Under the pieces are notes generated by a model, which did not search any database, was not told the origin of the DNA, and worked only from the letters and a program-made list of their open reading frames with translations. DNA of 62,904 nt, filler included, from Reclinomonas americana ATCC 50394 (taxonomy: Eukaryota): NCBI GenBank assembly GCA_048213135.1. It is 5 parts of 2 records of this genome, joined end to end, with 100 filler letters (N's around TTAATTAATTAA, not from the genome) between each part and the next. Parts side by side here need not be neighbours in the genome. Positions count along the whole stretch, not along the records: positions 5,838 to 24,575 come from PS015214.1; 4 more parts are not named here. One strand, 5' to 3'. The translations under genes were made by a program, and so were the position numbers. How positions within the stretch are numbered: position 1 is the first letter of the stretch; the number at the start of each line of letters is the position of its first letter. Below are positions 2,057-62,732 of the stretch, in pieces.

Positions 2057-4966
2057 ATGGCGAGTTCATTCGCGGCCAACGTGATTGGCAAGAAGGTGCG
2101 TGCCCTTTGCCACTCTCGCCTGCCTGCTTGCTTGCCTGCTTGCCTGCTTACACACACAGTGTGCAGGTGGTGGGCGACACCAAACGCTTTCTTGGTGCCT
2201 CGTTCTCCGACACGGGCTCGGAGGCATCGTCGCCGAGTCGCACGCCGACCACTGGTGAGAGCGATGGTTCCGGAGGCACGTGGATCTCGCGCGGCAATCG
2301 TCGCTTTGTGATTATCAGTGCCGTGGTGATTGGTGTGCTGGTCACGGCGGTGATTGTGCTGCTGGTGTTGCCGCGCAAGAAGAGCGGTGATAACTCGGCG
2401 CCAGTGGGACCCTCTGCCGAGTGCACCATTGCAAGTTGCGTGACGAGGCAATCGACTGACTGCAGCTGGGATGATATGATTCACTTCGCAATGCAGACTC
2501 GGATCTGAGGGCGTTTGTCACGGTGGCGATGACGGCCGACACGACGGCGTTGCCGCAGAGTGAGCGCACGGCGTTGCAGCATTTGGTGCGCGCCGCACAG
2601 CAGATGAATCCAATCTATCTCGAGCAGGTGTGGGTCAACAATGAGGCGACGCAGACGGCGCTGCAAATGGCGGCGGCGCAGAACACCACCGAGTGCCCGG
2701 TGCAGCAGTTGGGCGCGTTTGAGCTGAATGCTGGTCCGTGGTCGCGGCTTGACGATGAGCGTGCGTTTGTCGCGGGCGTGGGGGAGAAGCCGCCAGGCGC
2801 CGGCTTTTATCCGCTCGACATGAGCAAACAGGAGTGAGTATGCGCATCTCTCTCTCGCTGGAATCGCGCGCGTAAAGCTGATTGTGGATGGCCGTGCAGG
2901 TTCGAGACGTGGACGGCGAGCTTGTCGCCGGCGGATCGCGATCAGGCCGAGAGCTTCTTCACTGTCATTCGTCGAGATGCGCAAGGAAGTTGTGTGGTTA
3001 AGGAAATGTCATTCCTTGCCGGGTGCCTCGCTGCTCACGTGTGTGCATACACGCAGAGCTCATGTCGGTGCCTTACTCGACGGCGTACGCCACGCAACTG
3101 CAAGCCGCGGCCACTGAAATGCAGGCCGCTGCGCAGGCGACGACGAACCAGTCGCTGAAAAAGTTCGTGTGAAGCAAGGTCTCCTTTTTCCTTCTCCCCT
3201 CTTACACTCACTTCGTACCACAGCTTCCTGCAGTCTCGCGCCGCCGCCTTCCTCGACCCTGCGCAGGATTACTTTGCCAGCGACGTTTCGTGTTGTTGCT
3301 GCATGTGGGAAAGAGAGAGTGTGTTGCAATCAGATGCTGATGATGATTGCTTTTCGTCGTGCGCAGGTGCTGTGGATGCAGCTGGATTCGCCGATCGAGG
3401 TCACGATTGGACCGTATGAGACCTACGAGGACAATTTGTTGGGTCTGAAGGCCGCCTTCGAGGCATACGTGACCATCAAGGTGCGTGTGTACGCGGCGGC
3501 GTGCTGGCTGAGTGTGATGTCACCGACGATTGTGTGCTCGCAGGATCCCGAGTCGACGCAGCAACTGCAGACATTCACGCAGCACCTGCAGTTTGTGGAG
3601 GATAACCTGCCCATCGACCCCGCCTATCGCAACCCGCAACTCGGCAAGGCCGCCGTGCTTGTCGCCGTGAACGAGGTGTACAATGGAGGGTGCGTTGACG
3701 TGCAGCAAGGCTTTCTCGTATTTCTGTGACTCATCCTGCTCTTCTTGTGCATGCAGAGAGGCAGCGCCTGGTGTGCAGGTGTGTTGGCCCTTGTGTGTGT
3801 AAGAAGAGTGGGAAGAGAGAGACTCACATGTGCGGCGTGTGCAGAGTGCCGCCTTCAACCTGCCGAATGATCCGCGTGTCGTGGAGCAAGGTGCGGCTAT
3901 CTGTTGCTGATTGATATGATGACTGCGTTGCTCACCATCACGCGTGTGTGTGTTGGATACAGAGGGCAGCAAGCGCACACTGCTGAAGAACGTGCAGCGC
4001 GGCAAATACGATCGCATTCTGCTGCGACTCGCCGAGTTGCGCTTGTGATCAACCGCGCAATGGTGTCTCACGGCTGCTCTGTCTCACTGGCTGCGTCCAT
4101 GCAGACTCGGTGTGCGTGATGATCAGCGCTCCATGGTGTCGTTCGATGCCTTTTTCACGCACATTCTGGCTCACGAGCTCATGCACGGACTGGGACCACA
4201 CAACATCACGGTGCGTGACTCCAATTTTTTCGCATGTGTCGCTTCCTCTGCTCATGATTGAGGTGACCTGCAGATTAATGGCATGCATACGACAGTCCGC
4301 TTGGTGTTCCAAGCCCTGTACTCGCCGATTGAGGAGGCCAAGGCTGGTGAGTGCATAGCGTGGCAGTCTGCTGTCGACAGTGAGATCAAAATCCCTCACC
4401 GCTGCTGCTGCTGCAGATGTGTCCGCTCTGTGGATGCTCGTGCTGCTCAACGACAACAACTTTATCACCCTCACCGCCGACCAGGTCAAGTCGCTGTACG
4501 TCACCTTTTTGGCGAGCGCCTTCCGGTCGGTGCGCTTCGGCACCAACGAGGCGCATGCACGAGCCGTGGCGCTGTCATTCAACTCGTTTGTCGAGTGCGG
4601 CGGTTTTGTGTACGACTCATCGGCATCGGTTGCGTGGCGCTGCCTCTCTCTCTCTCTTTGAAAATGACACTGATCCGTCGCTTTGTGTGCAGATGTACTA
4701 TGTCGACTTTACCAAGGTACGTACCATTGCAAGGGAATTGTGCGTGATTGATGAAACTGAGCGGGTTTGGTGCACAGATTGAGGGCTGCGTCGCCGACCT
4801 GACGACCACGCTGTTGACGATGCAAGCACAAGGCAATGCCGCGCTGGCGCGCTCCCTGTTGGACTCGCGCGGCTCTGTGCGGCCTGAGATGCAGGCGGTG
4901 CTCGACAAGGCCACCACGCTCGGCATTCCGGTCGACATTCGGCCGATCTTTTCCACGTCGCCTTGA
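2057..4966 (+). CDS. Peptidase family M49 (dipeptidyl peptidase III, HEXXH type as in plant NUDX3/bacterial DPP III) with N-terminal signal anchor; ~16 exons
   Basis: Spliced product contains PPGAGFYPLDM, IGPYETYEDNLLGLKAAFEAYV, AFNLPNDPRV, GSKRTLLKNV, HELMHGLGP, EEAKAD, RSVRFGTNEAH and GIPVDIRP. TM segment FVIISAVVIGVLVTAVIVLLVL. All joins are in-frame GT-AG. Confidence 0.92.
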
Positions 4967-10448: not shown

Positions 10449-13400
10449 GTGTCGTCGAACGCGTGGACAGTGGTGGCGCTGCTCGCCCTGCTGTCGGTGC
10501 TGTTGGCGGGTGCAGCCTGTGGCGCGCCCTCGGTCACGGCCAATGCGCCAGTTGGCGACAGCGACACGCTCGTTGTCTCCACTTGTGCGTACGCGTCTCC
10601 TTTGATCGCATCCACGCCATTCACTGACTCTTTTTTGTTCTGCAGCCACCCGCGAGGTGCAGGATGCTCTCGACGTGTCGGACGAGGTGACCATCAATCT
10701 GGCCGGTATGTTAGTGCGCCTCCCGTTGTCCACTCATCCGCTGGTCTGATGTGGCGTGTCACGCAGGCATTCCGGTCGGTGAGGCCAGCATGGAGCTGGT
10801 GGCGGCGGCCTTGTCGCCCAAGCTGCGCTCGCTGAAGATGGCTTGTGAGTTGTCATACGTTTCTCCCGACAATGATCAACCAAAAGCGCTGATCCCCTTG
10901 CTCACGCAGCGTCTCGCTTGACGACGGCCACGTTCCGCAAGCTGCTGGACCACATCCAGAAGGCACCGGAGCTGCGCGAGCTCGACATTTCAGGTGAGTG
11001 GCGACAAAAAGTTGCCGTGTCGTGTGACCACTCTTCTCACTCTTTCCCAACCCGCGAACAACAGACAACTGGCTCACCGACGGTGCCGCCAAGGACCTGG
11101 GCTACGTGTTGCAGTTCATCCCGAAGTTGGAGAAACTCAACATTGGCTGTTGCGTGTCCGCACGACGACGAGCCCGTCATCACCGCCGCTGCCGCTGACA
11201 TTTGTCATTGTCGTGCCTGCAGACAACTTTATCAGCAACGACGGACTGCGGTGGCTGCTCGACAAGGTGGGCGATGCACCCGAGCTGCGCTCCTTTGCCT
11301 GCAAGGGCGGGTGGGACATCAAGCTGGATCAGGACGCTGGCCGTGTGATTGGCGAGCGACTGAAGAACATGCCAAAGCTGGAGGTGCTCGACCTGGAGAG
11401 TTGCGTAATTGACCGGCACGCTCGCTCAAAGAGTGTGGTCGCAAAAAATCTCACCTTAATCGCCGCAGAACAACCACTGAAGACGGTGGGTCTCCAGAAC
11501 ATTTTTGCCAACCTGGAGAGCGTGCCCAACCTGCGCGAGCTGCACATTCCCAGTTGCGTATCGTCGTCGTCGTCCACATCCACGCACCAAGCTGACTGTC
11601 GCGCCGCAGAGACCGACATGACGTTCCCGGCCGCGAAGGCGTTGGGCCCACTGCTCAAGAACGTACCCAACCTCGAGGTGCTGGATTTGGCAGAGAACAA
11701 GAACGCCAAGGACAAGGGCTTCAAGGCTATCTTCTCGCACCTGTCGCACGTGCCGAATCTGCGCGAGATCAACGTGTACGATTGCGAGATCGAGACTGAT
11801 GGCATGCTGACGCTGGTGGAGAACCTGAAGCACCTGCCGAAGCTGGAGGTGTTGAATCTGTCGAGTTGCGTCTCGCCTCGCTATGCCGTTTCGTCTCCGT
11901 CGTCGTCGTCGACTCACGCTTTCCGCTGTTGACAGAGAACTCGATGCGCGAGAAGCTTGCCGAGCCGTTTGCGCAGGCACTCAAGCACATTCCGGAGCTG
12001 CGCATCTTGCGGCTGGGTAGTTGCGTCTCTTGCACCTCCGTCGGTGAGTTGTGAATCATGCACACTCAATTATCAATCACGCATGTGCAGCGCACAAGTT
12101 TGGCGTGGAGGGCGCCGTCGAGGTTGGCAAGCACCTGAGCAAGTTGCCGAAGCTCGAGGAGCTGGCCTTTAGCGGAGATGGATTCTGTGCGTACCCTGTC
12201 GAGCGTGGGAGAGAGTGCATTTCTGAAAGCTGACCTGGGTTCTGGGTCGTGCGACAGACTTCCCGATCTACGGCCAGGGCACTGGACAGGTGCTCAAGTC
12301 CGTCGCCAAGATCAAGTCGCTCCGCATTCTCGACCTTTCGAGTTGCGCCCTGTCATCGAGCAAGGTTAAATATTATCGCCACTCACCTGCTTCTTCGTGC
12401 AGACACCAAGCCCGACGCCTACGGCCTTGGCATCCTCGACGAGGTGCTGCCGAGCATGGTGAACCTGGAGGAGCTGTACATTGGCGGTGCGTGAGCGAGA
12501 GAGACGTGGTGCTGCTGCAGTTTGGCGATCTCACTGAATTTTTTCCGCACAGCCAACTCGTTTGAGGAGGAGCAGGGCAAGCAACTCGCCGGCATTATCA
12601 ACCGCCGCTCGCCGCCCAAGCTCCGCCGTGTGTGGTTCGAGGGTGAGTGCAGAGTTTTCTCCTGGTGGACCCTGCACAGCGACCACCCTCTCACTTGGAC
12701 GATTCGCAGGAAATCCGCTGAAGACCGACACCAACTTGGAGATCATCAACGCCCAGGTCAAGGCCTTTGGTCCTCGCTTCACCAAGATCGACATTGGAGG
12801 TTTGCTTGCGTACAGCCTCTGTGCATGTCACTCCTTGCTCCGTATTCCTGACGACTGGACCAGGCTGGATGCTCGACGACGACAAGCTGAAGGGCTCGCG
12901 CCTGCTGCAGTACCTGCAGGGTGCACCGAACATTGAGTGGTTCTCCGCCGGCACCAACAAGCTGACCGACGACGGCATTCTGGGTTTGGCGGACCTCGTG
13001 GGCGGCTGGAGCAAGCTCAAGGTCCTGGACCTGCGCAGTTGCGTACCAGCTGCCGTGAGAAGATGGATGACTCCAGTTTCCCTCACCGCGCATTGTGCAT
13101 CACCAGGCAACCCGATTGGTGACCGCGGCATGCAGGGCATCATCAAGAAGCTGCCGGCGAGTTTGGAGTCCCTCTCCTTGTCCAACACGCAGATTGGCGA
13201 CGACACGTTGCTCAACCTGGCCAACAAGCTGTCGTCGTTGCCGAAGCTCATTCGCCTCGATCTCGGTGGTGAGTGCGCACTCTGTGTGTGCTCGAGGGAG
13301 GCGCCGCTTGTCTGATTACGTGACGCGCAGAGAACAAGGAGTACACGGAGGATGGCCTGAAGATGTTCATGAAGCACTTGCACCACTGCCACGCGCTCAA

Positions 13401-14052
13401 GGAGCTGATTTTGAATAGTTGCGAATGCATGCAAGGGGATGTTGAGGGAGGACGTGTGCTGACGAATGTGCATGTGTGCCACTCAGACTGCTACATGTCG
13501 CGCAAGAGTGCTCGCATCATCGGCGACTACTTGCACACAATCCCGTCGCTCGGCGCACTGGACCTGTCTCGTTGCGTGCCGCTCTCCTCGTGAATCCGTT
13601 GCTCTCGTCGCTTTTTTCCTGACTGTTCAGGCGATCGCACAGGCAACCTGATTGGCGACAACGCGGCGCTGCATGTGATCAAGCAGGCCACTCGTCTGCC
13701 GTTCTTTGTGCACCTGACGCTGCGCGGCACCGGCCTCACCGACGACGGCGCAAAGGAGATTGCCGACGTGCTGGGCTCGGCGCAACCGTACGGCATGACG
13801 CTGGATCTGGCAGAGAACAGCATTCAAGACACGGGTGCGTGGGCCCTGGCCGACCGCGAGGTGGCGCCCGATGCCAAGCTGCGCAAGCTGACACTCAACT
13901 TGATTCGTTGCGTAACCTCATGACTGCGTGTATGTGCGTTGAGTGGGTGGATGATCTCACGTTTTCTGCTGTGCAACACAGGCAACAATATCAGCGAGGA
14001 GGTGAGGAAACAGATCCATGAGGCGCACCCGCTCATCTACACCGGCGGCTGA
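10449..14052 (+). CDS. Probably secreted RNI-like leucine-rich-repeat protein, at least 20 exons; start codon not resolved
   Basis: Signal-peptide-like WTVVALLALLSVLLAGAACG, followed by ~28-aa repeats PxLxxLDLSxNx(I/L) (e.g. PELRELDISDNWLT, PNLEVLDLAENK, SKLKVLDLRSNPIG). The 19 introns are all phase 1. Ends HPLIYTGG*. Confidence 0.88.
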
Positions 14053-15642: not shown

Positions 15643-18350
15643 ATGACAGAGACACAGTGTGCCGCATCCACGTTTCATCGCCACCCGCTGCGTCTGATCG
15701 ACTTGACGACGGAGTCGCAGGCAAAGGCGCATGAGATTGCCGAGTGCGCGTTGCGTTTTCTTCTTGTCGGTGTTGTTTTTGAGTGCGTGTCTCGTGGAGA
15801 GAATCTTCCGACGCGCGTGCTCCAGTGCGTGTCTGGAGCTGTGTGAACCGCCAATTGTGTTGTGCACGGAGGCGCAGCATCCGCTTTGTCGTGCGGTGAG
15901 TGACGCGGTGTGTGTCCAGATGCGAATCTTTTTTCTCACCAATCGTCACTCGTGCAGCATCTGACGCGCGCCGAGCGGCATCTGTGTCCATGCTGCGACA
16001 CATCGCTCGACTCGTGTGTGTCGCCGTCAGACGAGGTGACGGCGGCGTTTGAGGGCTTGCAGGTTCGTTCCTGTGTGTTGGTGGTGGACCTTGCAATTAC
16101 CAAGTTGTCTCTCTCAATCGGCGGATCATCACAGGTGGCGCACTGCCCGAACGCACAGTGTGCGTGGAAGGGAACACTCGGTGACTACGTGCACACGCAT
16201 GAGCATGTGTGTGAGATCCAGTGCTCGCAGTGCCACGAACCGGTGCCGCGGTGCCACATGCGTGAGCATCGAGGTGCGCGTGAGCTGTTTGGTGGCGAGA
16301 GTGTATCCTCCTCCCGCTCAGTCGATCTTCCTTCATGCAGAGCACGTTTGCAACCAGCGGGCGGCACACTGCCACGCTGCGTCGATTGGCTGTGCGTGGG
16401 TCGGCGTGGTCGCCGATCTCGACGCCCATGAGCACCAGTGTGCATTTGCCTCGGCGGGCGAGCCCGTCAAGCGTCGCGTTGCGTCGTGGATGCTGGCAGC
16501 TGCTGACAGCTGTGATAGGCAGAGCTTATTCAAATGTGCAACATGCAGATCACCACCCTGCAAGACGAGAACAAGCACCTTGCTGAGGAACGCGATCAGC
16601 TGCTGGCGACGATCCGGGAGCTGAGTGTCAGTCACACGCCTCATCATTCTCACGCACATGGACATCCCGTCGAGGATCCGGGAATGGTGGTGCGTCATCT
16701 ATCTCCTCGCACTCTCTCCCGTGCCTGCCTACTTATGTGCACGCGTGCTCAGGCCAAGCTGGAGACAAGAAACCGAGAGATGCGGATGCGAGTGCATGAA
16801 CTGGAACGCGAAGTGGTCCGCCTGCGTAAGTCACTCCGCGTGCGATCTCGGGTGCGCATGCGTCGTGCACGCAAGAGAGTACGATGGAGAGACGCTCACT
16901 GTAGTGCTCTTGTGCAGTCGCCACCGTCGCATGCGTCGACGCCGCGATACGCGACATCGGTTTCACAATCGGTGCAAGAGCTGCCGCACTCGCACGCACC
17001 TGCACACGGCCACAGTGTCAGCATGGTCAGTTGCCTTGTGCTGATTGCATCACGGGCTGGTGACTAACAACGTGTGCTCCTCGTCATAGAGTGCCGCTGG
17101 CGCCGCATCGTCGTCGCCGAGCGCGCGACCAGCCAGTGCGGCGAGTACGGTAAGTGTCATGCGCGATGAACATCCCTCCTCGTTGTGTGCATCGGAACAA
17201 CTCACTGAAGAGGGTTGCTGGCGGTGGAGTCGCGTAGGTGGCGCCTTTGAGTGCACGCTCGTCGTCCAGCATGTCGTCGCACTCGTCGCTGGTGCGCTGC
17301 CTGTGAGAAACAACGTTTTTCGACACTGAGTTGTGTGCTGATTGGTTTCAAACGGGCAGTTTTCGCACTCGAGTCACCATCACGGCCACAAGGTTTGTGA
17401 GCGTGTGCTGAGGTGAGACCTGGAGGTTGCTGTTGACAGGGAATCTGTGTGATGTGCAGCGATGCCTGCGCTGCCATGCGTTGGTGGAGAGCGAGCAGGA
17501 GGCGGAGATTCCGTGTGGTTTGTCGGATTTCTCGCCTGCCTGCAGTCGTCCTTTTCTGTAGAGCTCCACTCACTGCGACTGGTGTCACTGTGTGATGTAG
17601 TGTACCATCCAGGGACCTACCGCACCAAGCCATCAGCTCTGCCGTTCGGACACACTGTTGCGTGCGTGTCGAAGAAAAAAGCAGTCACATGTGGCACTCA
17701 CTGCATGCTGTTGTTTGTGTGTGCAGTATGTGCGTGCATCACCACTCTGCTGAAAGTAGTAGTGACTCACCGCCTGCTGTCTCTTGCTGTGGCTCTCTCT
17801 TCCTTCGCCTGGCAGTCGGTACGTGTGCCACACAAAACTCACGATTGTGAATTTCGGCACTTACTTATAACTTGTCTCTCTCTCTGCAGCGAGTTGAGTC
17901 CACTGCAGTCCACCTCGTCTGTTGCATATGTTTGATGACATCTGACATTATCGTGTGTACTTCTGCGTTCTGCCGTCGCTCCTTTGCTTCACGGATGTTA
18001 GGGGGTGAGTGATCGATATGATCGATATCGATATCGAACAACACCGACTGCTTCTCTGTGTTATGCTCGCTAACACTGTTCTGCTTCTCACCATGTCGTT
18101 CCTTTACCATCTCGTGTCGCATGTGGATGGCAGGAGGTACGTGCGCAGTGCGGCATATGAGTTGTCTTCGATTTCCATTCTGATCCTTGGCCTCTTCGGT
18201 GCAGTGGGAGTGCTGCGGAAAGTGGGGCGAGGTGAGTATTGCACTGACATGCCTGCGCTCTCTGTTTGCATGCGAGGCTGACCGCACTGGTGCTTCGACC
18301 AACAACAGGATGCGCCCGGCTGCCACGAAGAGAAATTCCACGAGTTGTGA
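15643..18350 (+). CDS. RING finger + TRAF-type zinc fingers + coiled coil + C-terminal CHORD/Btk-like zinc finger, including five 3-nt microexons
   Basis: RING-like CAAC..C..H.LC..H..CPCC; TRAF-like CPNAQCAWKG..H..C and C..ASIGCAW..H..C; coiled coil ITTLQDENKHLAEERDQLL. Intron 17150-17237 links in frame to RCLRC..PCVYHPGTY..GHT-Y-S-R-G-E-WECCGKWGEDAPGCHEEKFHEL*. Confidence 0.8.
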
Positions 18351-19527: not shown

Positions 19528-21090
19528 CTACTTGCGCTCCTCGTAAACAAACATGTCTCCAAACTCTTGCATGACGGCATCGAGCACCGCTGCATGGTCG
19601 CACACCACCACCCTCTTGCCGGCCTTGGCCAGCTTCTTGGCAATGCGCAGCTTGGGCGAGTTGTCAATCATCGGCACGGCGCAGTTCGGCTTGTATGTCA
19701 CGTCCTCGAATCGGTACTGCGCGCACAAGTACGGTGAGTGACCGGCAATACCCACCACCATAAACCGCAGCACGCAACTTCCTCGCGATCCTCCGCCAGC
19801 AAGTCGTGGAACATGAGATCCGAGTGGAAGTCATTGTACTGATCCGAGGCCTCCGGCAGCAGCGGCTTCACGCCAATCGACGATGCATACACACCCAGCG
19901 CCACATTGTCTCGTGGGTAGCACGGTCCACCGTACGCGTAGCCGGGTCGGATGCACTTGGGTCCGATCGAGTCGTCGCAGCCGAGAGCACGCGAGATTTC
20001 GTCCTTGTCGGCGCCAGGAGTCCGATCGGCAATGTCGCCAATCATGTTTCTGTCGACGCAACGGCGCACGTAAGTATGAAGGAGAGAGAGAGAGAGAGGC
20101 AGCCAAGAAAATACAAGTGACGAGACGCAACGCAAACGAGATCTTGATGGTGCGGAAGCAGTTGGAGGCCAGCTTGGTGATCTCGGCCGATTCCGGTGTC
20201 ATGCGGCAAATGGCGGGCGGTGAGGTCGAGCCACGCGCCAGCGCCGTGTAGATCTCTGTTAGCCGTGCAGCGCTGGCGTCGTTGTCGGCACCCACGAGCA
20301 CCATGGAAAAGTAGCCGCCGGTTTGGTAGCCTTTCAGAATGTCGCCCTGTGCGACGAACGCCGGGTTGTAGTTGACTGTGACGTTGGGGCAGTCGCGCAG
20401 CAAGAAGCGCGCCACGTTGCGAATGTAGCCCGGCATCACCGTGCACGAGATCACAATGTGCTTGTCGGCGGGCTTGCGACGATTGACCTGGCTCAGCACA
20501 CGCGATACCTTCGAGTGATCGTACTGACGCTCGCCACCAGCCGTTGGCGTGTCCACCAGCACAAACACCGTGTCGGCGAACTCCAGTCCCTGCGAGTCGC
20601 AAGGTAGCATGAAGAGGTCAGTTGTTCTGCACTCCAATCCTCGCAGGAGTCGACAAGAACACACCTCGGCAAGCGATGTGGTGGCGCGGAAATTGGTGCA
20701 CGACTGCAGCAACTCGGTGACGCCCGGCTCGTCCGACACATACGTGCGGTTGTTCAGTGCCTCGCAGTACACGGGCGACAGGTCGACACCGAGCACATCG
20801 TAGCCGGCACGCTCGCACGACAAGGAGAAGCACAAACCGATACGACCGATGCCTGCATGCATGCATGCCGGATTGAGTTCTCAACCGACGAGGACAAGGA
20901 GGAGAAGGTGCAGTGCATATGAAGGAGAGACGAGAGTGATGCTCCCGTGTACAGGCAGACAAGAGATGCAGCAGAGTAAGTGAAGGGTGTTGCGTGCGTG
21001 TGATCGTCGTGATCACATGTCCGCGAAGGACACAGAGACGCACTCACCGATCACGGTGAGCTTGTTGCTGGAGGACGACGATGAGGCCAT
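19528..21090 (-). CDS. UDP-glucose/GDP-mannose dehydrogenase family protein
   Basis: Rossmann motif VIGIGRIGL, VDTPT, YNPAFVAQG, AEITKLASNCFRTIKISFANMIGD, catalytic-Cys motif YGGPCYPRD, and TYKPN. Confidence 0.92.
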
Positions 21091-21398
21091 GGGTTCCGTG
21101 AGGATGATGATGATGAGGGATAACTGCACACAGCAGCAGCATCAAGTGAGTTCTCGGAGCTCACAGAGAGCCGCCATGGCCATGTGCAACACACAAAGAA
21201 AGAGAGAGAAAGCGCAACGCGATTGCAGACTAGTCGATCAGGAGGAGGAGCAAGTGCATCAACTCCCCGCTCACTCTTCTCCCCACTCCCCTCTTCTCAC
21301 TCGACAATCGACCCAACACGTGCTCACCAAACAACACAACGAGCTGGAAATACTCCGATTCCGTCCATTCAAGTGAGTGGGTGGAATACCCCTCAATC

Positions 21399-24401: not shown

Positions 24402-25263
24402 ATGGTCATGGTGGTGTGCACTGGCGGCTGCGAGGCCGCAGAGACATGCCGACCGCCCAACGACAAGAAACATAAGTCGTGGGCATGGACGGCATGCAAC
24501 TCTGCGCTTCTCTACACCTCCGCCGTGGCCAGTGCAACACAACACCAGACGCGCACACACATAAACACACAAACGNNNNNNNNNNNNNNNNNNNNNNNNN
24601 NNNNNNNNNNNNNNNNNNNTTAATTAATTAANNNNNNNNNNNNNNNNNNNNNNNNNNNNNNNNNNNNNNNNNNNNTGCTCACCTCTCTTGCCGCTTGCCG
24701 CTGACGTGACCGCCGCAGCCGGTATCCACAAGTGCACGGCGTGTCCGCCACCCGAGCCCGGCACAGTCTACACAGAAACAGGCGTCGTCAGTGAGCAATG
24801 TCCACGAGTGTGCGCGCCCGGGTACGAGTGGATTGTGCAGTCGTCGTCGTGTCAACCGTGTCGATCCGGATTCTTCAAATCGCACAGCGGTAGCCTCCTC
24901 CTCTCGACCCAATCAAAGCAGAAGAACTGTGCGTTTCTCATTCGTGGTTGCTAATCGCAGGCTCCGTCGCCTGCACGGCATGCGCCAACGCACCGCTGAA
25001 TAGCTTCTACACCGGTGTTGGATCGACGACGAGCGAGTGCACGTTTGTTTCGCTGGTGTGTCGCATTGCTTCGCTACATGCGTCGGTGCTCTTTCTGACA
25101 ACGCGCGCCACAGTCGGGAGTTTTGATGTCGCGGGGCACCGGCCATCTGTCCTCGTTCGTGTTTGGCTGTTTAAGCGCACTGGTGCTGTACTACGTGGCC
25201 CGCAAGGCATACGACTGGTGGATTGACGCGACGCCGCGGAAGCCCGACGATCTCATGGTTTAG
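24402..25263 (+). CDS. Small Cys-rich (TNFR/ephrin-receptor-like repeat) single-pass membrane protein, crossing a gap
   Basis: CTACPPPEPG..CPRVCAPGYEW..CQPCRSGFFKSHSGSVACTACANAP..CTF, then TM SSFVFGCLSALVLYYVA and a short tail. Start is uncertain. Confidence 0.7.
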
Positions 25264-31500: not shown

Positions 31501-33675
31501 ATCAGTTCACCGACGTTTTTTCCCTTTATTTGTTTCGCGCCAGGCGCGATACAGGAGAACAAGGCCAGCGAGATGCGCGTGTGGGTCAACACAGATCTCG
31601 TGCACATGACCGGCTCCATCAACAACGACGACGAAGCACTGGCGCTCATCGAAAAGGCCGTCACCAGTGTGGCTGGCGCCTCCATGGACATCATGTTCAT
31701 CCAGCCCAGCGTCGTCTTCGGCAACTGCCCGAAGCGGCCGTCCACGTCGCTGCGCACGGTCACCATCAATGCGGCGAGCGAGCGCACCGTGCCCAAGTTG
31801 CCGCCTGGCCACTGGTGCGTCGATTTCTCTTTATTGTTTTGCGTAGTCTGTCAGATCTGAGTGTCGGAGCGGCGTCGCAGGTTCGAGCGCTCTGGCAAGA
31901 GCATTCTTCCGTGTCCGAGTCCGTGCCCTGGTGGCGCCAATTTGCTGCTGCCCATCCAGTGGCCGGCGCGTTGTCACTTGATGCTGCGCGACAAGGATCC
32001 TGAGCTGGAGATGGCGTACCAGTTGATCAAGGGCGCCGACGGCGTGGTGAGCGAGTCGCCGCTGAATGTGGCCACGCTGACTCCCGAGCGAGTCGCACAA
32101 GATAAGCCGGAGATGTGTGTCGTGATGCCGCTGTATCACCGCGGTCGCGACCCGCTGGAGCAGAGTCATCTGTTCAGCATCTTCATGTGGCAGGTGTGTG
32201 AGAGAGAGGAAGAGGAAGTGAGTGAGAGAGTGAGGGAGAGAGAGAAGGAGAGGGGAAGAGAGAGGTGAGTGAGTGAGTGAGGGAGGCAAGAAGAGGGGAT
32301 GAGAGTGTGAAAAGGATGGAAGGTGAGTGGAAGAGAGTAAGTAAGAGAGGGGAGTGAGTGGGTGTGTGAGTGAAAGTGTGCGAGACAGTCACTGACTGAA
32401 TGAGTAAGTGAGTGGGTTAGTGTGTGTGTGTGTGTGCATGTGTGTGCGATGGATTACACATTCGTGTCATTTGCTCACTTTTCTTTGCAGACCGTGAATC
32501 AGCTGTTTGCGAATCTGGACGGCACCTATCGGCTGGCGTTCTACTGTTGCGTGGTTCCTGTTGCTGTTAGCTTCGCCGTGCTGCATCTACTCACATTCTG
32601 CATCTGTGCAGGGGCCATGCAGCACGACAAGATTAACACAGACACACCGGGCGAGTTGTCCAAGATTGGCTATCGCGAAGTGCGTCTTTTGTTATCGCCC
32701 ATGCACGTGACATGCAGCTGCTGATTGTGGTGCACGCGCAGTTTAAGAAAATCTTCACCGCCGCTGCCAAACCCGGCGAGATCACGCGCTACCAGACGTA
32801 CATGACGGGACTGGGGGTGCGTGCAATGTGCGCTCTTGCTCACCTCTTGTTTTTTTGACACCCGTCGCTCTCGACACACAGCCACCCAGTGACAACGTGT
32901 ACTACCCTCGAAACCAGCTGGCCTCAGTTGCGTTGACTCTTCCGTCGTTTAGTCGTCGTTGGCTCTGACCCAAAAACCGCCCGTTGGTGCAGTTGACGTA
33001 CAACCAAGGATGTACGTACTTCTTTTTGACCGACAACGACGCCATCTTCATCGACACAAATTTCATGAATCGGTGCGTGTGCGATGCTGTTCGCTCTTTG
33101 TGTGATCACTGCTGTCTCACATTTCAGCAGCTGGGTCAATGAGCTGCGCTTGATGGGCGATTTTGGGTGCGTTGTGTCGCGCAGTCGCCGTGGAGTGCAT
33201 CGTCTCACCTGCGGTCATTTTGTGTGACAGAGCTGTCGGGAGCGGATGGCGTGACACTCTCTTCAATGCGTTCATTGTTGGGCGCCCACACTTGGAGATT
33301 TTTGGCTCAGTTGCGTTATTTCTTGCTTTCTTTCTGCCATCCCCCCTTGTGCTCATCTGTTTCACTCCGCAGTACTGGCCTCCGTATTTCCACAACTGGT
33401 GAGTGGTTCCACATGTCGTGATATCTGGTGCATGACAGCACTCGACCCGATCTCCTGCGTTTCCACGTGTTTGTGAATCCCGTAAGAATTCATTCTTGTT
33501 CTTTCCATGATCGCTTCTCTCGGTCTGCTTGTCTGTATATATTCTCTGCCTCTCATGCCTCTCCTATCTCGTTTTCCACATTTCGTCCTCGTTTTCTCAG
33601 TCGCACTCCCTCCCTCCTTGCTTGTGCTCCGACTGCCCGCCCATCTACCCGTTTCTCTATTGTCGCACCCTTTTT

Positions 33676-33763
<88 letters not shown>

Positions 33764-34981: not shown

Positions 34982-35141
34982 ACCAGAAAAAAAAAGAAGG
35001 CTAATGTATGTATGTGTTACGCGGAGTGGTAAAAGAACACAGCAGAATAACTTCATTCTTTCTGTGCATGGAGAGCCGCTAAACATCATCGTTCTTATTC
35101 ACAGTTGGTGGGAGGAGAGAGTGGAGTGGAGATTGCCAAAC

Positions 35142-56808: not shown

Positions 56809-59153
56809 ATGTCGGGCGGTGAGTTGGCCCACTTGCATGCACACTGTGTTGCCTACACACGCACGCACGCACAGACACGCGCGCGAATGTCTGCACGTTG
56901 TGTTGTTTTGCTGTGCGTGACATTTCCCCCTCTTGCTGCTCACACCAAACTTGCACGCAGAGTCGACGACACTGCGCATTGTGCACGTGAACGATGTGTA
57001 CGAGCTGCATCAGTTCCCGCGACTGCGCACACTGGTGCAGCAGCAGCAGCAGCAGCGATCGACTGATGCACATGTAAAGACTGTGACAACCATGGCGGGA
57101 GACTTCCTCGCACCCTCACTGCTCTCGGGCATTGATCGCGGTCGTGGCATGGTCGACTGTCTCAATCACGTGCCTGTTGATATTGTCTCGTTTGGAAATC
57201 ACGAGACCGATGTGCCGTATGAGTCGCTGGAGAGACGCATTGAGGAGTACTCGGGAGTGTGGCTCAACAGTAACATGCCGGCGTTTGGAGTGCCGTTGCC
57301 GACATCGCATGTGGTGCAGGTGGGCAAGCGCAAGGTCGCCTTTGTGGGACTCATGTCTGCGGATCCAACGTTGTACCGCCCGAATTCGTTTGGAGGTGCA
57401 TTCACGTCGTTGACGCCGGTGAACAGCACGTTGCGTTGCTGCGCACAGTGGAGGGAGAGTGAGAGTTGTGCAGCGGCCAACGAATGTGCATGCGTGTAGA
57501 TGTGCCGATTTGTGCCATCAGCTGCGTGGCAGTGTCGACTGTGTTATTCCGTTGACGCACCAGGATCAGCCGGATGACGATGCTCTCGGCCACATGGGTC
57601 TCTCGCTCGGTGTGCCGGTGGTTCTTGGCGGGCACGATCATAATGAGGTGAGGAGACGCAGGCGGGGGTGCACACTCGTGTGTGTCGCTTATGCCTCCGA
57701 TGCAGTGCGTCAAGTTTGTCAATGGCTGTCTCGTGGCCAAGAGCGGCATGGATGCCAAGCGTGCCACCATTATTGAGTTGACGTGGAGCAGCGATGAGGA
57801 TGTGCTGCCGACAGTGACGTTCCACATGGAGACGGTGACCGCGTACGACCCCGACCCGGCGCTGGCCGAGATTGTGGAGTCGCACATGGTTTGTTGGGGT
57901 AGTCACCATCTCCCCTCTCCTTCTTGCCTTCTCTCTGTCTTCCCCTCTACTCTGTCTTCTCCCCCACTCTGTCTCCCCACCTTTCCGTCTCTCTCCCCGC
58001 GCCCTTGTAATTGCAGTACGGTTCTCACCATCCTTTTGTTGGGCAGGTGAAACTTGCGGCCCTCGACTGCATGGTGTTGTTTTTGATTCGCGACAAGGAA
58101 GCGCCGGCACGCAGCCCCACCTCCACCGAGATGGCGGAAAAGTATTCGGGGTTGACGGCCCGGCAGCGCTTCCTCGCGCTCACGTTGCACTCGTTGCCGG
58201 CGATCTCGTCGGTGAATTCGCGCTGCCAGGGCACCACACTCGGCACGCTGCTGTGCTCCATTCTCCGCGGCATTCTCAACGTGGATGTGAGTTGGGGAGC
58301 GGGGGTTGCCCATGTATGCGCATTTGCTGACTTTTTTTCCATGCGCAGGCCTGCGTGTTGGAGAGCGGCGGCGCACTGCGTGTTCGCAAGGATTACCCCG
58401 AGCGCTTCACTTACGGTGATTTGCAGGCGGAGATGGTGCGTCGCATGTATCAGACACAGACACGCACACCCCTTTTGTTTGCTAACTTTTAACTGTGGGG
58501 CGAAACAGCCGTTCGAGAACAATCTCGGCGTCATTGCGATGCCGGGAGCTGTGCTGGCCGAGGCCATTCGCGTGTCGCGCGACGTGCAGCCCGGTGAGGA
58601 GAACTCGAGCTTGCTGCAAAACGACGACGGCATCACGATCGAGCCGGCGCCGTCACACCGCGTGACCCGCGTCGGCGGGCGGCCACTGGAACCGGAGCGC
58701 CTGTATCGTGTGGCATTCAACTTGGATCTCGGACTCGGGCACAGCAATCCCGTGCTGCGCGCGTTTGCAGAGCGCAATCCGACCATTGTGCCACACGCCG
58801 ACTCCTGTCTGCCGGCCAAGATCGTGCTGATGGAGTTCTTTAGTCGCCTCTTCTGGGAGCGCCTGCCCTCGTTCGACACGGTCGACGTGAACGGCGACGG
58901 CTTCCTGTCGGTGGACGAGGTGCGCGACCAGTACGTGAAGCTGTTTGCCGACGTGAACGGCGACGGTGTCGTGGACGCCAGCGAACTGGCGGCCGCCAAC
59001 TGCATGGCCGAGTTGCTGATCAAGGCCGTCGATCGCAACCGCGACTTCAAGGTCTCTCGCGAGGAGTACGAGACCATGTTTTGCGATTCCAGCCCGGCCG
59101 CACCAGCCCCCGTGTCGGTGCATGATCCGGATTATGTGCCGGCGTGGGAGTGA
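56809..59153 (+). CDS. 5'-nucleotidase/apyrase family metallophosphoesterase fused to C-terminal EF-hands
   Basis: VHVNDVYEL, GDFLAPSLLS, GNHE, LTHQ and GGHDH; 5'-NT C-domain GGALR..TYGDL..PFEN; EF loops DVNGDGFLSVDE, DVNGDGVVDASE and DRNRDFKVSREE. Confidence 0.92.
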
Positions 59154-59237: not shown

Positions 59238-61505
59238 ATGGCCAGCAAGAAGCCGGCCTCGAAGGAGGATTCTCTGGAGGTTGTGCGCCAGATGGTTCTG
59301 CGCACGTTGGAGTCCAAGGGCATTCTCTCAAAGCTCAAGGTCTGTGCGCGTGTGTGTGTACGTGTGTCTCAGTATCTGTGCGCGTGTGTCTCCTTTCTCT
59401 CTCTCTCTCTCTCTCCAACACCCACACACGTGCACACACAGGCAGAGTTGCGTGCCAGTGTATACACAGCAATCGAGGATCCAGATGAGTTGAGCGAAGA
59501 GCAGCTGCGTGCGGGCGAGAGGATGCACTCGTCGCCTGATCGTTGCGTGCGCCCTCCCTTGTGCACACACACACGCTCACACACAGTCACTCACTCTCTC
59601 TCTCTCTCTCACACACTCAGGGGTGTTGGCATTGCACTTGGTGCGCGAGTTGCTGGATTGTTATGGACTCGTACACACCATGGACGTGTTTGAGCAGGAC
59701 TCACAGCTGGTCAGTGCTCGCCACTCCCTCTCTCTCTCTCACACACACAGTCACTGAGTGTGTGAGAATTGGGGGCAAGCGCAGTACAGAGACGCATCGT
59801 GGCCTTCACGAGAAGCCATGCTGGCCTCACTCGGACTGACCGACAGCACGGAACCGGTGTTGGTGTCACTGGTGCGCAAGAGCTTGGGATCTCCGATCGC
59901 CCCCACTGGAGAGACGACAAACAGCAAGAGCGTGCCTTCTGTCATTCGAGTGCCGACTGTGCCGAAACCGCAGTTGCGATCGATCTGCACGCTCGCTTGT
60001 CGTGTGTGCGCATGTTGTCTCTTGCTGAGAGAGGGAGCGATGCAGAGCGTTGCCATCTCCGCTCTCTGACACTGCCGACGACGACGACGATGATGATGAG
60101 CATGATCGGAACGGTGTGGCTCGCAAGGCGTCGCCGACCAAGACGCCACCTGCGCAGCCTGCGGCCGCAGCCAAGCCCGGTGAGTGTTGTTCATTGAACA
60201 GCGCCTTCTTCGGTTTAAATTGCTGCTCATGTGGTGTGCCGTGAGAAGCCGCGGCAGCAGCTGGTGGTGGTGGTGGTGGTGGACATGCCACGCCACTGGT
60301 GGCGTCGGTGGATCAGCCGCTCTCACGGCTCGGTCAGTTGCCGTCGCTGCAGGGGCGATCGGCGTTGACGGCGTCGGATCCGAATCGGCTGCGCGTCACT
60401 GGTTCGCTTGGCGACAGTCTCGAGAATCCACTCACCATGACGTTCTCCACGTTGCGTGAATGTCATTCAAGCTGGGGTTCTGATGATGCCTGCTGTCGCT
60501 TACTTTTAGCGATACGCAGTGACTCGGGCCATGAGCAAATAGATCAGCCGCTGACGCCAAACAGGGTACGTCTTTACTCTCTCTCTCTCTTTCTCTCCCT
60601 CTGTCTCGCACACACACTCACCTCTTTCGCTTGAGGCCATTCTACTGGTCATCGACTGACGTCTTGCGTGCGTAGGGTTCCTTCCTGGAGACCGCCAATG
60701 AACGCGTCTCTGCGCAGCAGCAGCCCGTATCACGCAAGAGCCCGCTCGATGCCTCGGTGGACAGGTGGGCCTTGTGTGTTGAATCACCCGCCCTTTCAGT
60801 TCATTTGCTCACCTTCACGCTCGCAGCATCGGCTCACCCTCGGCAGTCGGCACGGAGGAGACGGTGGAGTCGATTGCGGAGAGTGTGGACGACGTCATGG
60901 ATGAGGACGACGAGAGACCATTGTCGCGAGGTGGCGTTCAAACACCCCCCGGCGCCGCACTACCGCCGCCGCGATTCGGAGCCGCCAGCCAGTTGCAGCG
61001 ACCACCGGAGCGCGATGGCCGACCTGCACAGCCCAACAGTCCGTCAACAATAACCGCCGCCGTCTCTTCCCCCGCCGGCAGCAATCTCAACAAGTCGACC
61101 GCCAGCACCGCCACGAATCGCTCGTCAGACGAAGACGAGGGCGACGGTCTGGAAGACGACGACGTCGGCGGCCTGAAGCGTCAGTCGCCGGCCGGTAGCG
61201 ACGCTTCCAACTCCAAGCCAGCAGCAGCAGGGCCTGCAAAGGACAAGCCGCCAGCACAACTGGCGCCTTTGGCGGAACCGAAAAAGAGCATGTTGGGTGA
61301 ACTGCCGCCCGTGCGCGGTGGCGCCGGTCGTCTCGATCCCCTCGGTAGCGCAGGTGCCGGTCCACCACGACTCGGTGAGCTGCAGCGACCAGGGTCGGCG
61401 CTGGCCCGTCCGCTGGCCACGGTCGCGGCCGACGAGGCGGTGGATCTCGATTCTGAGGAGGACGTGGAGAGCTCGGATCTGGGCAAGTCGCCAAAGGTGC
61501 GCTCC

Positions 61506-61538
<33 letters not shown>

Positions 61539-62732
61539 CCAGCTTCGCCACCGCCGCGACGAACAGGTCGAATTGTGGTGGGCGACGACAAACCGGCCGC
61601 CAAGCAGGAGCCAGCGGGCGCGGTGCTGACGGGCGGTGGGTTCTCGGTGCCTGCGCACTATTTGAAGCCGTCGCACGATGACGACGACGATGATGATGAT
61701 GACGACGATGCCGGTAGTGGAAAGAAGGGCAAGAAGCAATCAGCCGCTCATGTTGCGTGCGGGTGGCGCCGCTGTGATTGCGATGTGAGATCTGACTTGA
61801 GTTTCCGCAGTCTGATTCTGACGGTGGCGATTCACCGCCGCCCGTACGCAAGCGTGGATTTATCACCGACCTAGCACAATCGGCGGACTCGGATCGACCC
61901 GTGTCGGCCACGCGAACGGGTAGTCGTTTCGGTGCGCAGGCGGGCAAGCCTGCAGCAACGGCGGCAGTGGCTGCGGCAGACACGGACCGCGACGAAGACG
62001 AATACTCTGGTGCACATATGCTCCACTCCCCCCTTTGCCTGTGTTGTTGCTGATCGTTTGCTGTGCCCTGCAGACACCTTTGACAGCTCGCGTGCCAGTG
62101 GTTCGTCGGCACCCGGCGGCTCCAACAGCGATGCGCCGCGAGCCTCTGGTGACATGATGAGCCTGTTTGGCCTGAACCGCGCCAATCCTGGGGCGGCCGG
62201 CGGCGCTCCACCCTCCCGACCGATTGCGGCAGCCGACGAGGCAGAAGATGCGGCAAGGTATGACGACCCTGCATGATAGTGATTTGTTTGTTGCGCCCTC
62301 TCACATCCATCGGGCGGGCAGTGTCGACGAGGAGATCGAGTCGGATGTCGAGGACGACGACGGCGACGAGGAGATCGATGTGGGCGGCGACGCCTCGGAC
62401 GACTCGACCGATCGCCACCCCGTCAATGTGCCCACGAAGCCATTGCAGGGGGCACGACCAGCATCCGCCTCCACTGCGGCCCCGGCAGCTGGCTCCTCGT
62501 CGCTCGGAACGCTGGCCGGTCTCCCCGCACTCAGTCGACCGCGAACTGCGCAACCGCCTCCCGCCAGCAGCAACTGGAGAAAACACGGTACGTTGGCGCA
62601 TTCACACTCGCAACGAGAAAAACACATGACTGACAAGAGTGTGCAGTGGACGACGATGAAGACGACGACGTCATTGACGACGACGACGATGCAGGAGATG
62701 AGGAAGTCAACTTGTCAGACGACGCGTTTTGA
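59238..62732 (+). CDS. CEP43: CEP43/FOP (FGFR1OP)-like centriolar LisH protein with long acidic disordered tail
   Basis: VLRTLESKGILSKLKAELRASVYTAIE, LVRELLDCYGLVHTMDVFEQDS (TOF/LisH) and EPVLVSLV. Ends VNLSDDAF*. Confidence 0.8.

What the first reader, a model, noticed from the sequence alone, without database searches (positions are those of the whole stretch)
11149..13913. Register-shifted 5' splice sites (GTTGCG) are a major donor class
Seen: beside GTGCGT/GTGAGT donors, many introns start GT-T-GCG(T), the same motif displaced by one base so the usual +5 G sits at +6. In the LRR gene 10 of 19 introns do so (11149, 11400, 11553, 11865, 12020, 12342, 13038, 13418, 13571, 13907), all after a non-G exon base. 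None of its six donors preceded by G is GTTGCG. Other examples are 2435, 4036, 9664, 17657 and 17893 (GTTGAGT); 4629 is an exception with -1 G. Frame conservation places cleavage before the GT. Established: atypical GUUAAGU-type donors read by +1-shifted U1 pairing are known in mammals but rare. Inference: this lineage uses the shifted register routinely, perhaps through variant U1/U6 snRNA or altered U5/U6 dependence.
Basis: partly seen in the sequence, partly recalled or inferred. Interest (0 to 1): 0.8.

Follow-up and report, generated by a model that had tools for sequence, protein, structure and literature searches.

The report
One-base-shifted intron start signal GTTGCGT
In this stretch of an unidentified intron-rich eukaryote, about four in ten introns start with GTTGCGT, the usual start signal pushed one base into the intron, and almost only where the preceding exon does not end in G; such starts are a rarity in humans.

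Summary
All 16 listed sites carry the stated motif. The 19-intron LRR model gives one open frame, and 10 of its 19 donors are GTTGCG, all after a non-G base.

It is not only repeat paralogy. Profiles or alignments of homologues fix the junctions in three unrelated genes: UGDH-like, M49 peptidase-like and 5'-nucleotidase-like. They add 5 more GTTGCG donors and 2 look-alikes (GTTGTGT, GTTTCGT).

Across 41 supported introns:
- 15 are GTTGCG and 17 have G at +6 instead of +5.
- Exon base -1 is G in 1 of these 17, against 18 of the other 24 (p=1.6e-5).
- The extra base is always T, +7 is mostly T, and +5 is C in 16 of 17 and never A.

Without any gene model, GTTGCG is the GT-hexamer most often followed by a branch-plus-CAG signature: 30 of 86 sites against 10.4% overall.

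Homology places cleavage before the GT. The shifted U1 register fits most of these features, but it is inferred. No RNA run, whole genome or snRNA gene was available, and the lineage is unresolved. Motif searches of the literature found no description.

Verdict: a real, frequent donor class and a new variant of known non-canonical-register 5' splice sites.

The parts
10500..14052 (+). RI-type leucine-rich-repeat gene, analysed part (19 introns; start codon not fixed)
   Evidence: One open frame after removing 19 GT..AG introns. Exons match Pfam LRR_6. The donor-agnostic gene finder gives the same model at 18 of 19 donors.
11149..11222 (+). S-type intron, t|GTTGCGTGT, 74 nt, branch CTGAC
11400..11468 (+). 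S-type intron, a|GTTGCGTAA, 69 nt
11553..11609 (+). S-type intron, a|GTTGCGTAT, 57 nt
11865..11935 (+). S-type intron, a|GTTGCGTCT, 71 nt
12020..12090 (+). S-type intron, a|GTTGCGTCT, 71 nt (no strict CTSAC branch)
12342..12402 (+). S-type intron, a|GTTGCGCCC, 61 nt
13038..13106 (+). S-type intron, a|GTTGCGTAC, 69 nt; splits the codon inside LDLRSNPIGD
13418..13486 (+). S-type intron, a|GTTGCGAAT, 69 nt
13571..13642 (+). S-type intron, c|GTTGCGTGC, 72 nt; splits the codon inside LDLSRNLIGD
13907..13981 (+). S-type intron, c|GTTGCGTAA, 75 nt
19528..21090 (-). UDP-glucose/GDP-mannose dehydrogenase-family gene, 5 coding exons and 4 introns
   Evidence: Pfam UDPG_MGDP_dh_N. Spliced product aligns end to end with 12 homologues.
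20050..20131 (-). S-type intron, c|GTTGCGTCT, 82 nt, phase 2
   Evidence: The junction gives KISFA|NMIGDIAD, identical to two homologues and without a gap.
19717..19778 (-). S-type intron, a|GTTGCGTGC, 62 nt, phase 0
   Evidence: The junction restores a Tyr shared by 9 of 12 homologues. A one-base slide would give Asp.
2497..4966 (+). Peptidase M49-like gene, homologous part: 14 exons, 13 introns, micro-exons 3757-3778 and 4693-4716
   Evidence: Profile of 36 homologues. Best splice model scores 708.2 bits and every tested alternative scores lower.
2989..3056 (+). S-type look-alike intron, a|GTTGTGTGG, 68 nt
   Evidence: 708.2 bits against 684.7 for the gene finder's donor at 2971.
3285..3366 (+). 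S-type look-alike intron, c|GTTTCGTGT, 82 nt
   Evidence: Best of all GT/GC..AG pairs within 45 nt.
4036..4104 (+). S-type intron, a|GTTGCGCTT, 69 nt
   Evidence: 708.2 bits against 703.3 for in-frame donor 4045.
4629..4692 (+). S-type intron after G (the one exception), g|GTTGCGTGG, 64 nt
   Evidence: The micro-exon model scores 708.2 bits against 689.6 without it.
56961..59150 (+). Metallophos / 5'-nucleotidase-like gene with EF-hands, analysed part (5 introns)
   Evidence: Pfam. Profile of 31 homologues. Splice model scores 588.0 bits.
57430..57499 (+). S-type intron, c|GTTGCGTTG, 70 nt
   Evidence: 588.0 bits against 581.8 for the next best pair. Homology to the exon runs to its last residues.
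2435..2496 (+). Candidate S-type intron, a|GTTGCGTGA, 62 nt (not counted)
   Evidence: Picked by the gene finder. Lies upstream of the homologous part of the M49 gene.
21124..21218 (-). Candidate S-type intron in the 5' leader of the UGDH-like gene, c|GTTGCGCTT (not counted)
   Evidence: CTCAC...CAG signature 95 nt downstream. Lies upstream of the ATG at 21090.
17657..17726 (+). Candidate S-type intron, t|GTTGCGTGC; a GTGCGT at 17662 is an alternative donor (not counted)
32546..32611 (+). Candidate S-type intron, t|GTTGCGTGG (not counted)
   Evidence: Gene finder plus signature.
59542..59620 (+). Candidate S-type intron, c|GTTGCGTGC (not counted)
   Evidence: Gene finder plus signature.
61752..61810 (+). 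Candidate S-type intron, t|GTTGCGTGC (not counted)
   Evidence: Gene finder plus signature.

Best explanation
GTTGCGT is a genuine second class of ordinary (major-spliceosome, GT..AG) 5' splice sites. I call it the S-type.

What it is: the organism's normal donor, (G)|GTG[A/C]GT, with its GCGT core moved one base into the intron. The near-universal G at +5 therefore sits at +6 and the T at +6 sits at +7. The class is used where the exon does not end in G. Cleavage is still directly before the GT.

Most likely mechanism (inferred): the 5' end of U1 snRNA binds these sites in a register shifted by one base.
- Intron G+1 takes the place normally held by exon G-1.
- U+3 takes the place of U+2.
- U+2 is the single mismatch.
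- The later U5/U6 and Prp8 step then fixes cleavage at the only GU in place.

Because the class demands C at +5, the U1 of this organism, or a second U1 species, probably pairs with GCG rather than with the standard RAG.

Shown: the existence of the class, its cleavage site, its frequency in this window, its link to base -1, and its fixed T at +3 and C at +5.
Inferred: the partner RNA and the register.
For: Existence and cleavage site:
- 41 introns in four unrelated genes are fixed by an open frame with LRR periodicity, by alignment to 12 homologues, or by the best profile score among alternative GT/GC..AG pairs.
- 15 of the 41 start GTTGCG and 17 have G at +6 with a non-G at +5.

Model-free test:
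- GTTGCG is followed within 45-115 nt by CT[GC]AC...CAG at 30 of 86 sites, against 804 of 7713 for all GT (p=1.1e-9).
- Outside the LRR gene the figure is 22 of 76 (p=6e-6).
- This is the highest rate among GT-hexamers with at least 15 sites.

Link to base -1:
- -1 is G in 1 of 17 S-type donors against 18 of 24 others (p=1.6e-5).
- Without the LRR gene it is 1 of 7 against 12 of 15 (p=0.0066).
- 16 of 22 donors after a non-G base are S-type, against 1 of 19 after G.
- Model-free: 2 of 34 against 17 of 36 (p=1e-4).

One-base displacement:
- T at +7 in 14 of 17, against T at +6 in 21 of 24 canonical donors.
- No enrichment for a two-base displacement: 8 of 111 sites.

Register:
- Only T works as the extra base: 24 of 57 sites against 8 of 68 (p=1.6e-4).
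- S-type -1 (A10 C5 T1 G1) resembles canonical -2 (A8 C4 T4 G2).

Same machinery: intron lengths (57-82 nt) and the CTSAC branch 12-28 nt before CAG are alike in both classes.

Precedent: shifted and bulged (+2/+3) U1 registers are experimentally established in human cells (PMC4856993, passages read).
Against: - No RNA evidence: no RNA run was listed.
- No snRNA gene in the window and no whole genome held, so the partner is unseen.
- With a standard U1 5' end, GTTGCG donors give only -0.2 to -4.8 kcal/mol, against -10 to -13 for G|GTGAGT.
- A standard U1 would prefer A at +5. The class has C in 16 of 17 and A in 0 of 17. A plain shift on a standard U1 is therefore not enough.
- In simple pairing terms a shifted GUUGCGU is no better than N|GUGCGU read in the normal register. 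Pairing alone does not explain why S-type wins 16 to 6 at non-G exon ends.
- 10 of the 17 come from one repeat gene.
- The sample is one window of an unidentified organism.
Confidence: 0.55

Rival explanations
1. Same class, but read by U1 (and U6) in the normal register, with one of the two U's at +2/+3 bulged out. G+1 pairs where it always does and exon base -1 plays its usual part.
For: GUU followed by a displaced core is exactly the 'bulge +2/+3' type described for human sites (PMC4856993 Table 3). It needs no change in where cleavage sits relative to U1. U6 would need the same bulge to keep its G:C and U:A pairs.
Against: A bulged register would still profit from G at -1, yet G is nearly absent there (1 of 17). 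In the wider signature-supported set it is 0 of 32. A pure bulge at +3 should tolerate other bases, but only T is enriched.
Confidence: 0.15
2. A dedicated partner. This would be a second U1 snRNA species, or another changed snRNA or protein such as U1C or LUC7, whose recognition surface matches GUUGCGU exactly. The genome would then run two donor grammars side by side.
For: The class is more rigid than the canonical one, with seven nearly fixed positions. It has C and never A at +5 (0 and 16, against 9 and 10 at canonical +4; p=0.0015). Predicted pairing to a standard U1 end is very weak. Variant U1 genes exist in humans (PMC3561869, search listing only).
Against: No snRNA could be inspected. 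3' signals and intron lengths do not differ between the classes, so nothing else marks a separate pathway.
Confidence: 0.2
3. Artefact: inheritance of one donor through duplication of LRR repeats, wrong gene models, or chance.
For: 10 of the 15 GTTGCG donors sit at the same phase-1 position of one repeat gene. There is no RNA evidence. The motif-free gene finder differed from the homology model at 6 of 12 junctions in the M49 gene.
Against: - 5 GTTGCG donors in three unrelated genes are fixed by homology.
- Enrichment holds outside the LRR gene: 22 of 76 sites, p=6e-6.
- LRR intron interiors are barely more alike than shuffled ones (0.49 against 0.455; other introns 0.51). The motif has therefore been kept while the rest decayed.
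Confidence: 0.04
4. A family of recently spread copy-introns (introner-like elements) with a conserved 5' end, or minor (U12-type) introns.
For: A rigid 5' motif is typical of both.
Against: There is no conserved sequence beyond +7/+8 and interiors are near random. The motif is unlike the minor-intron 5' signal (consensus recalled, not from a call). The branch is CTSAC as in the other introns.
Confidence: 0.03

Closest known systems
Shifted-register 5' splice sites of mammals (Roca and Krainer 2009, recalled; cited as ref. 10 in PMC4856993, passages read)
   Same: Cleavage is at the GU while all pairs to U1 sit one position further downstream. G+1 pairs where exon G-1 normally does. The exon end is not G.
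   Different: In humans this is a handful of sites with an AAGUAU core. Here it is 15-17 of 41 introns with a GCGU core, C obligatory at +5 and U obligatory at +3. The register has not been tested here.
Bulge +2/+3 register 5' splice sites (Roca et al. 2012, recalled; Tan et al. 2016, PMC4856993 Table 3)
   Same: The sequence type is the same: GUU followed by the normal core one base late.
   Different: Humans have 68 predicted sites among 201,541 (54 after curation). All validated non-canonical registers together are 1.5% of human sites. Here the class is about 40% of a small sample and avoids G at -1, which a bulged register would not predict.
[quoted passage not shown]
   Same: The population of donors is split. 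Strength on the exon side (G at -1) and strength on the intron side are anti-correlated.
   Different: In the known split both classes keep G at +5. Here the intron-strong class has its whole core displaced by one base and is nearly invariant.
Canonical introns of Mamiellophyceae green algae: AG|GTGCGT donor with an NCTGAC branch (PMC3879977, section 10 read; earlier finding e1-560454)
   Same: The normal donors of this window (G|GTG[A/C]GT) and its CTGAC/CTCAC branch resemble that grammar.
   Different: The text read describes no displaced class; the donor logos are in a supplement I could not open. The Micromonas branch lies 43-52 nt before the acceptor, against 12-28 nt here. This window is far richer in introns. 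Its lineage is unresolved, and the green-algal TGTAA signal (recalled) was not seen by eye just after two stop codons.

Membership tests
Major-spliceosome (U2-type) GT..AG introns | GT at the 5' end and AG at the 3' end, with removal restoring the reading frame | tested here: met
   All 17 S-type introns are GT..AG and restore the frame or the homologous protein.
Major-spliceosome (U2-type) GT..AG introns | Branch-site motif shortly upstream of the acceptor, shared with the other introns of the genome | tested here: met
   CT[GC]AC or a close variant lies 12-28 nt before CAG in both classes.
Major-spliceosome (U2-type) GT..AG introns | Actual excision from RNA | not testable with these tools
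   No RNA run was listed.
Shifted-register 5' splice sites | Downstream consensus displaced by exactly one base relative to canonical donors of the same genome | tested here: met
   G at +6 in 17 of 17 and T at +7 in 14 of 17. No enrichment for a two-base displacement, 8 of 111 sites.
Shifted-register 5' splice sites | Exon positions behave as if moved by one (-1 behaves like canonical -2; G at -1 not favoured) | tested here: met
   S-type -1 is A10 C5 T1 G1. Canonical -2 is A8 C4 T4 G2. The samples are small.
Shifted-register 5' splice sites | Pairing of G+1 to U1 C9, shown by compensatory U1 mutations | not testable with these tools
   This needs an experiment, and the U1 gene was not available.
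Bulge +2/+3 register 5' splice sites | GUU start with the core one base late | tested here: met
   T at +3 in 17 of 17.
Bulge +2/+3 register 5' splice sites | The normal exon-side preference (G at -1) is retained | tested here: not met
   G at -1 in 1 of 17, against 18 of 24 canonical donors.
Minor (U12-type) introns | Their own rigid 5' motif and extended branch motif (consensus recalled, not from a call) | tested here: not met
   The 5' end is GTTGCGT and the branch is CTSAC as in the other introns.
Introner-like repeat introns | Sequence similarity between copies along the intron | tested here: not met
   Interior identity is 0.49 against 0.455 for shuffled sequences, no higher than among the other introns at 0.51. 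Only the LRR gene's introns were compared.

The most novel reading that the evidence does not exclude
This organism runs two donor grammars in parallel. About 40% of its introns have given up the almost universal G at +5 for G at +6. They are served by a dedicated recognition mode: either a second U1 snRNA whose 5' end is exactly complementary to GUUGCGU, or a spliceosome whose U6/U5 step accepts a 5' splice site displaced by one base. That would be the first lineage in which a non-canonical register is a main route of splicing and not an exception.
Probability: 0.3. Interest if true: 0.85.

Novelty: new variant of a known kind. Interest (0 to 1): 0.72.

Why it matters
G at +5 and the fixed spacing between the cleavage site and the pairing core are among the most conserved features of intron recognition.

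- A genome where a large share of introns carries the core one base late, chosen according to the last exon base, is a natural experiment. It bears on how U1 binding is uncoupled from the choice of the cleaved bond, and on how exon-side and intron-side contacts trade off.
- The first motif-free gene model differed from the homology model at 6 of 12 junctions of the M49 gene, and three of these involve GTT-type donors. Gene predictors trained on standard donors may mis-annotate such genomes in the same way.
- If the class is genome-wide, the snRNAs and U1-associated proteins of this organism become direct targets for study.

Tried and rejected
Data that could not be had:
- RNA evidence: no RNA holder was listed for window:9000-18500, and the cap is one search.
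- Whole genome: none is held, so no genome-wide logo and no search for U1/U6/U5, METTL16, SNRNP27K, U1C or LUC7.
- Rfam on the window: nothing at gathering scores. At E<=1 there are 6 weak hits and none is an snRNA. No tRNA.
- Earlier notes of this scan: nothing for this genome or its look-alikes.

Lineage, not resolved:
- The window's own proteins are not in the protein collection.
- Named relatives are scattered: Cymbomonas, Fabomonas and Phalansterium for the dehydrogenase; Podochytrium, Diaphanoeca, Gymnodinium and Entosiphon for the nucleotidase; Acidobacteria for the M49 peptidase.
- A metagenome scan found no relative. The protein atlas gave no usable hit. A search with the nucleotidase C-terminal exon found only 2 EF-hand proteins.
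- Tandem repeats are only microsatellites.

Gene finding:
- The first motif-free gene finder fused genes and invented long introns.
- The second was right for the LRR and dehydrogenase genes. It differed from the homology model at 6 of 12 M49 junctions, so its introns were not counted.

Readings rejected:
- Introner-like family and minor introns.
- A one-base slide of both splice sites. This would give non-GT..AG ends, and at 19778 it would replace a conserved Tyr by Asp.

Literature:
- Full-text searches for GTTGCG with intron, GTTGCGT with splice site, GUUGCG with splice, and GTTGCG with splice donor, consensus and introns returned only primers and unrelated sites.
- GTGCGT with U1 snRNA gave nothing relevant.
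- Donor logos printed only as figures or supplements would escape these searches. Supplements are closed, including supplementary fig. S1 of PMC3879977.
Full report
**What the window is.** It is nuclear DNA of an intron-rich eukaryote. Genes have about 58% G+C, there are gaps of N, and microsatellites flank the gaps. Introns are short, mostly 57-82 nt. They end in CAG and carry a strong CTGAC/CTCAC branch motif 12-28 nt upstream of it. No whole genome is held. No Rfam family reaches threshold and no snRNA appears even at E<=1. No RNA run was listed.

**The observation.** In the LRR gene, removing 19 GT..AG introns gives one open frame ending at 14052.
- The protein is a regular RI-type leucine-rich repeat. 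Exons match Pfam LRR_6.
- The junctions fall inside textbook motifs such as LDLRSNPIGD and LDLSRNLIGD, so the spacing is only right with these splice sites.
- Ten of the 19 donors are GTTGCG, all after a non-G base. None of the six donors after G is GTTGCG.
- A gene finder that knew only GT, AG, a branch/acceptor score and codon usage chose all ten.

**Is it only repeat paralogy?** All ten sit in phase 1 at the same place of the repeat, so they could share one origin. Three results argue against that as the explanation.
1. The interiors of these introns are hardly more alike than shuffled sequence: 0.49 against 0.455, and 0.51 among the gene's other introns. The motif has been kept while the rest decayed.
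2. Three unrelated genes show the same donors, and there the junctions can be checked against homologues.
   - In the UDP-glucose-dehydrogenase-family gene on the minus strand, introns 3 and 4 start GTTGCGT after C and A. The spliced product aligns with 12 homologues with no gap at either junction. It reads KISFA|NMIGDIAD and restores a Tyr found in 9 of the 12. Sliding both sites by one base would give non-canonical ends and replace that Tyr by Asp.
   - In an M49-peptidase-like gene, a profile of 36 homologues scores the best splice model at 708.2 bits. It scores lower with every alternative tried: 703.3 with donor 4045 instead of 4036, 684.7 with 2971 instead of 2989, and 689.6 without the micro-exon that makes 4629 a donor.
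   - In a metallophos/5'-nucleotidase-like gene, a profile of 31 homologues prefers donor 57430 (GTTGCGT) at 588.0 bits against 581.8 for the next pair.
3. A test without gene models. Among all GT-hexamers with at least 15 sites, GTTGCG is the one most often followed, 45-115 nt on, by CT[GC]AC...CAG.
   - GTTGCG: 30 of 86 sites, against 804 of 7713 for all GT (p=1.1e-9).
   - Outside the LRR gene: 22 of 76 (p=6e-6).
   - GTGCGT reaches 18 of 87 and GTGAGT 14 of 87.

**Counts.** I counted only introns fixed by frame plus repeat structure or by homology: 19 + 4 + 13 + 5 = 41. Left out were 2435 (outside the homologous part of its gene), a probable leader intron at 21218, and all introns known only from the gene finder. 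That finder differed from the homology model at 6 of 12 M49 junctions.
- 15 of the 41 start GTTGCG.
- 17 have G at +6 and a non-G at +5. These are the 15 plus GTTGTGT at 2989 and GTTTCGT at 3285. I call these S-type.

**Anatomy of the class.**
- +3 is T in 17 of 17, +4 is G in 16, +5 is C in 16 (T once, A never), +6 is G in 17, and +7 is T in 14.
It is G in 18 of 24 other donors (p=1.6e-5). Without the LRR gene the figures are 1 of 7 and 12 of 15 (p=0.0066).
- Seen the other way, 16 of 22 donors after a non-G base are S-type, and 1 of 19 after G.
- The model-free sets agree: 2 of 34 against 17 of 36 (p=1e-4).
- The extra base must be T. GTTG[AC]GT has the 3' signature at 24 of 57 sites. With A, C or G at +3 it is 0 of 5, 3 of 29 and 5 of 34, which is background (p=1.6e-4).
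- A two-base displacement is not enriched: 8 of 111 sites.
- Lengths, branch motif and acceptor do not differ between the classes, and phases 0, 1 and 2 all occur. Both classes therefore look like substrates of the same major spliceosome.

**How it most likely works.** Written as eight letters, the two types are G-G-TGCGTG, cut after the first G, and G-T-TGCGTG, cut before it. The S-type is the normal element with its second letter changed from G to T and the cut moved to the only GT present. This is the logic of the shifted U1 register known from human cells. G+1 pairs where exon G-1 normally does, U+3 pairs where U+2 does, U+2 is a mismatch, and U6/U5 fix the cleaved bond later (PMC4856993, passages).

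Three features here fit that register better than a simple bulge:
- the near absence of G at -1;
- the resemblance of S-type -1 (A10 C5 T1 G1) to canonical -2 (A8 C4 T4 G2);
- the strict need for U at +3.

Two features do not follow from a standard U1.
- Predicted duplexes with the standard 5' end are very weak: -0.2 to -4.8 kcal/mol, against -10 to -13 for G|GTGAGT.
- The class insists on C at +5, whereas canonical donors use A and C alike at +4 (9 and 10; p=0.0015). A standard U1 would favour A.

A U1 end that pairs with GCG would explain this by a one-mismatch budget. The shifted site already spends its mismatch at U+2 and cannot afford A at +5. A second U1 species matched to GUUGCGU would explain it as well. 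Both are inference, because no snRNA could be seen.

Why S-type beats N|GTGCGT at non-G exon ends (16 to 6) is not explained by pairing arithmetic alone. It may reflect the known see-saw between exon-side (U5 loop 1) and intron-side (U6) contacts (PMC11732430, passages).

In the LRR repeats both types occupy the same codon position. Conversions between them therefore happened in place, by gain or loss of one T, together with changes of the first base of the split codon. That is what compensation predicts.

**Comparison with what is known.**
- In humans, all validated non-canonical registers make up 3119 of 201,541 sites (1.5%). The GUU-type 'bulge +2/+3' class has 68 predicted sites (PMC4856993 Table 3).
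- The two-class view of 5' splice sites (AG//GUNNN against NN//GURAG) has the same anti-correlation but keeps G at +5.
- The normal donors and the branch of this window resemble the AG|GTGCGT plus CTGAC grammar of Mamiellophyceae (PMC3879977 section 10; earlier finding e1-560454). That text describes no displaced class, the branch distance differs, and the lineage of this window is unresolved.
- Full-text searches for the motif found no description. Logos shown only in figures or closed supplements could hide one.

**Verdict.** The cleavage site is supported by homology. The class is frequent, about 37-41% of 41 supported introns, and has a sharp grammar: N|GTTGCGT, T at +3, C at +5, not after G. 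The mechanism is probably a shifted register with an adapted or additional U1, at about even odds.

The limits are one window, no RNA data, no snRNA genes and an unknown organism. I rate it a new variant of a known kind, of high interest if the genome-wide census and the snRNA genes bear it out.

Noticed in passing
window 2497-4966 (+): The M49-peptidase-like gene has at least 13 introns, including two micro-exons of 22 and 24 nt (3757-3778, 4693-4716). Its best database relatives are bacterial (Acidobacteria, about 50% identity on one exon), which suggests an old transfer or patchy retention.
   Followed up: partly
window 3481-3543 (+): A 63-nt intron (g|GTGCGTGTG...CGCAG) is in frame and free of stop codons, so open-frame reading passes straight through it. 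Removing it raises the profile score from 683.7 to 708.2 bits.
   Followed up: yes
window 19528-21090 (-): The dehydrogenase-family gene has its nearest named relatives scattered over distant eukaryotes: a prasinophyte alga, an ancyromonad and an amoebozoan, at 49-58% identity. The rest are unnamed environmental sequences.
   Followed up: partly
window 56961-59150 (+): A metallophos / 5'-nucleotidase-like enzyme is fused to C-terminal EF-hands. The gene finder ran on into an acidic, low-complexity protein downstream (59246-62732). This may be a separate gene.
   Followed up: no
window 5738-5837, 24576-24675, 28994-29093, 53846-53945: Four identical gap patterns occur: 44 N, 12 bases, 44 N. There are also four gaps of exactly 20 N at 44423-49203. 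These look like an assembly or masking convention, not biology.
   Followed up: no
window 28000-36000: A G+C-poor stretch (34-47%) has strong strand skews, long (AG)n, (TC)n and 24-nt CT-rich tandem arrays, and large gaps. It may be a repeat-rich or poorly assembled region between gene clusters.
   Followed up: no
window 51472-51759 (-): An open frame matches the Chlamydia polymorphic-membrane-protein repeat and a right-handed beta-helix. Candidate GTTGCG donors lie nearby on the same strand (53207, 52800).
   Followed up: no
window 12800, 57889, 3163 (+): Other GTT-starting donors (GTTTGC, GTTTGT, GTTCGT) keep G at +5, so they are canonical-register sites with T at +3. Two of the three follow G. 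GTT at the start is therefore not by itself the mark of the displaced class.
   Followed up: partly
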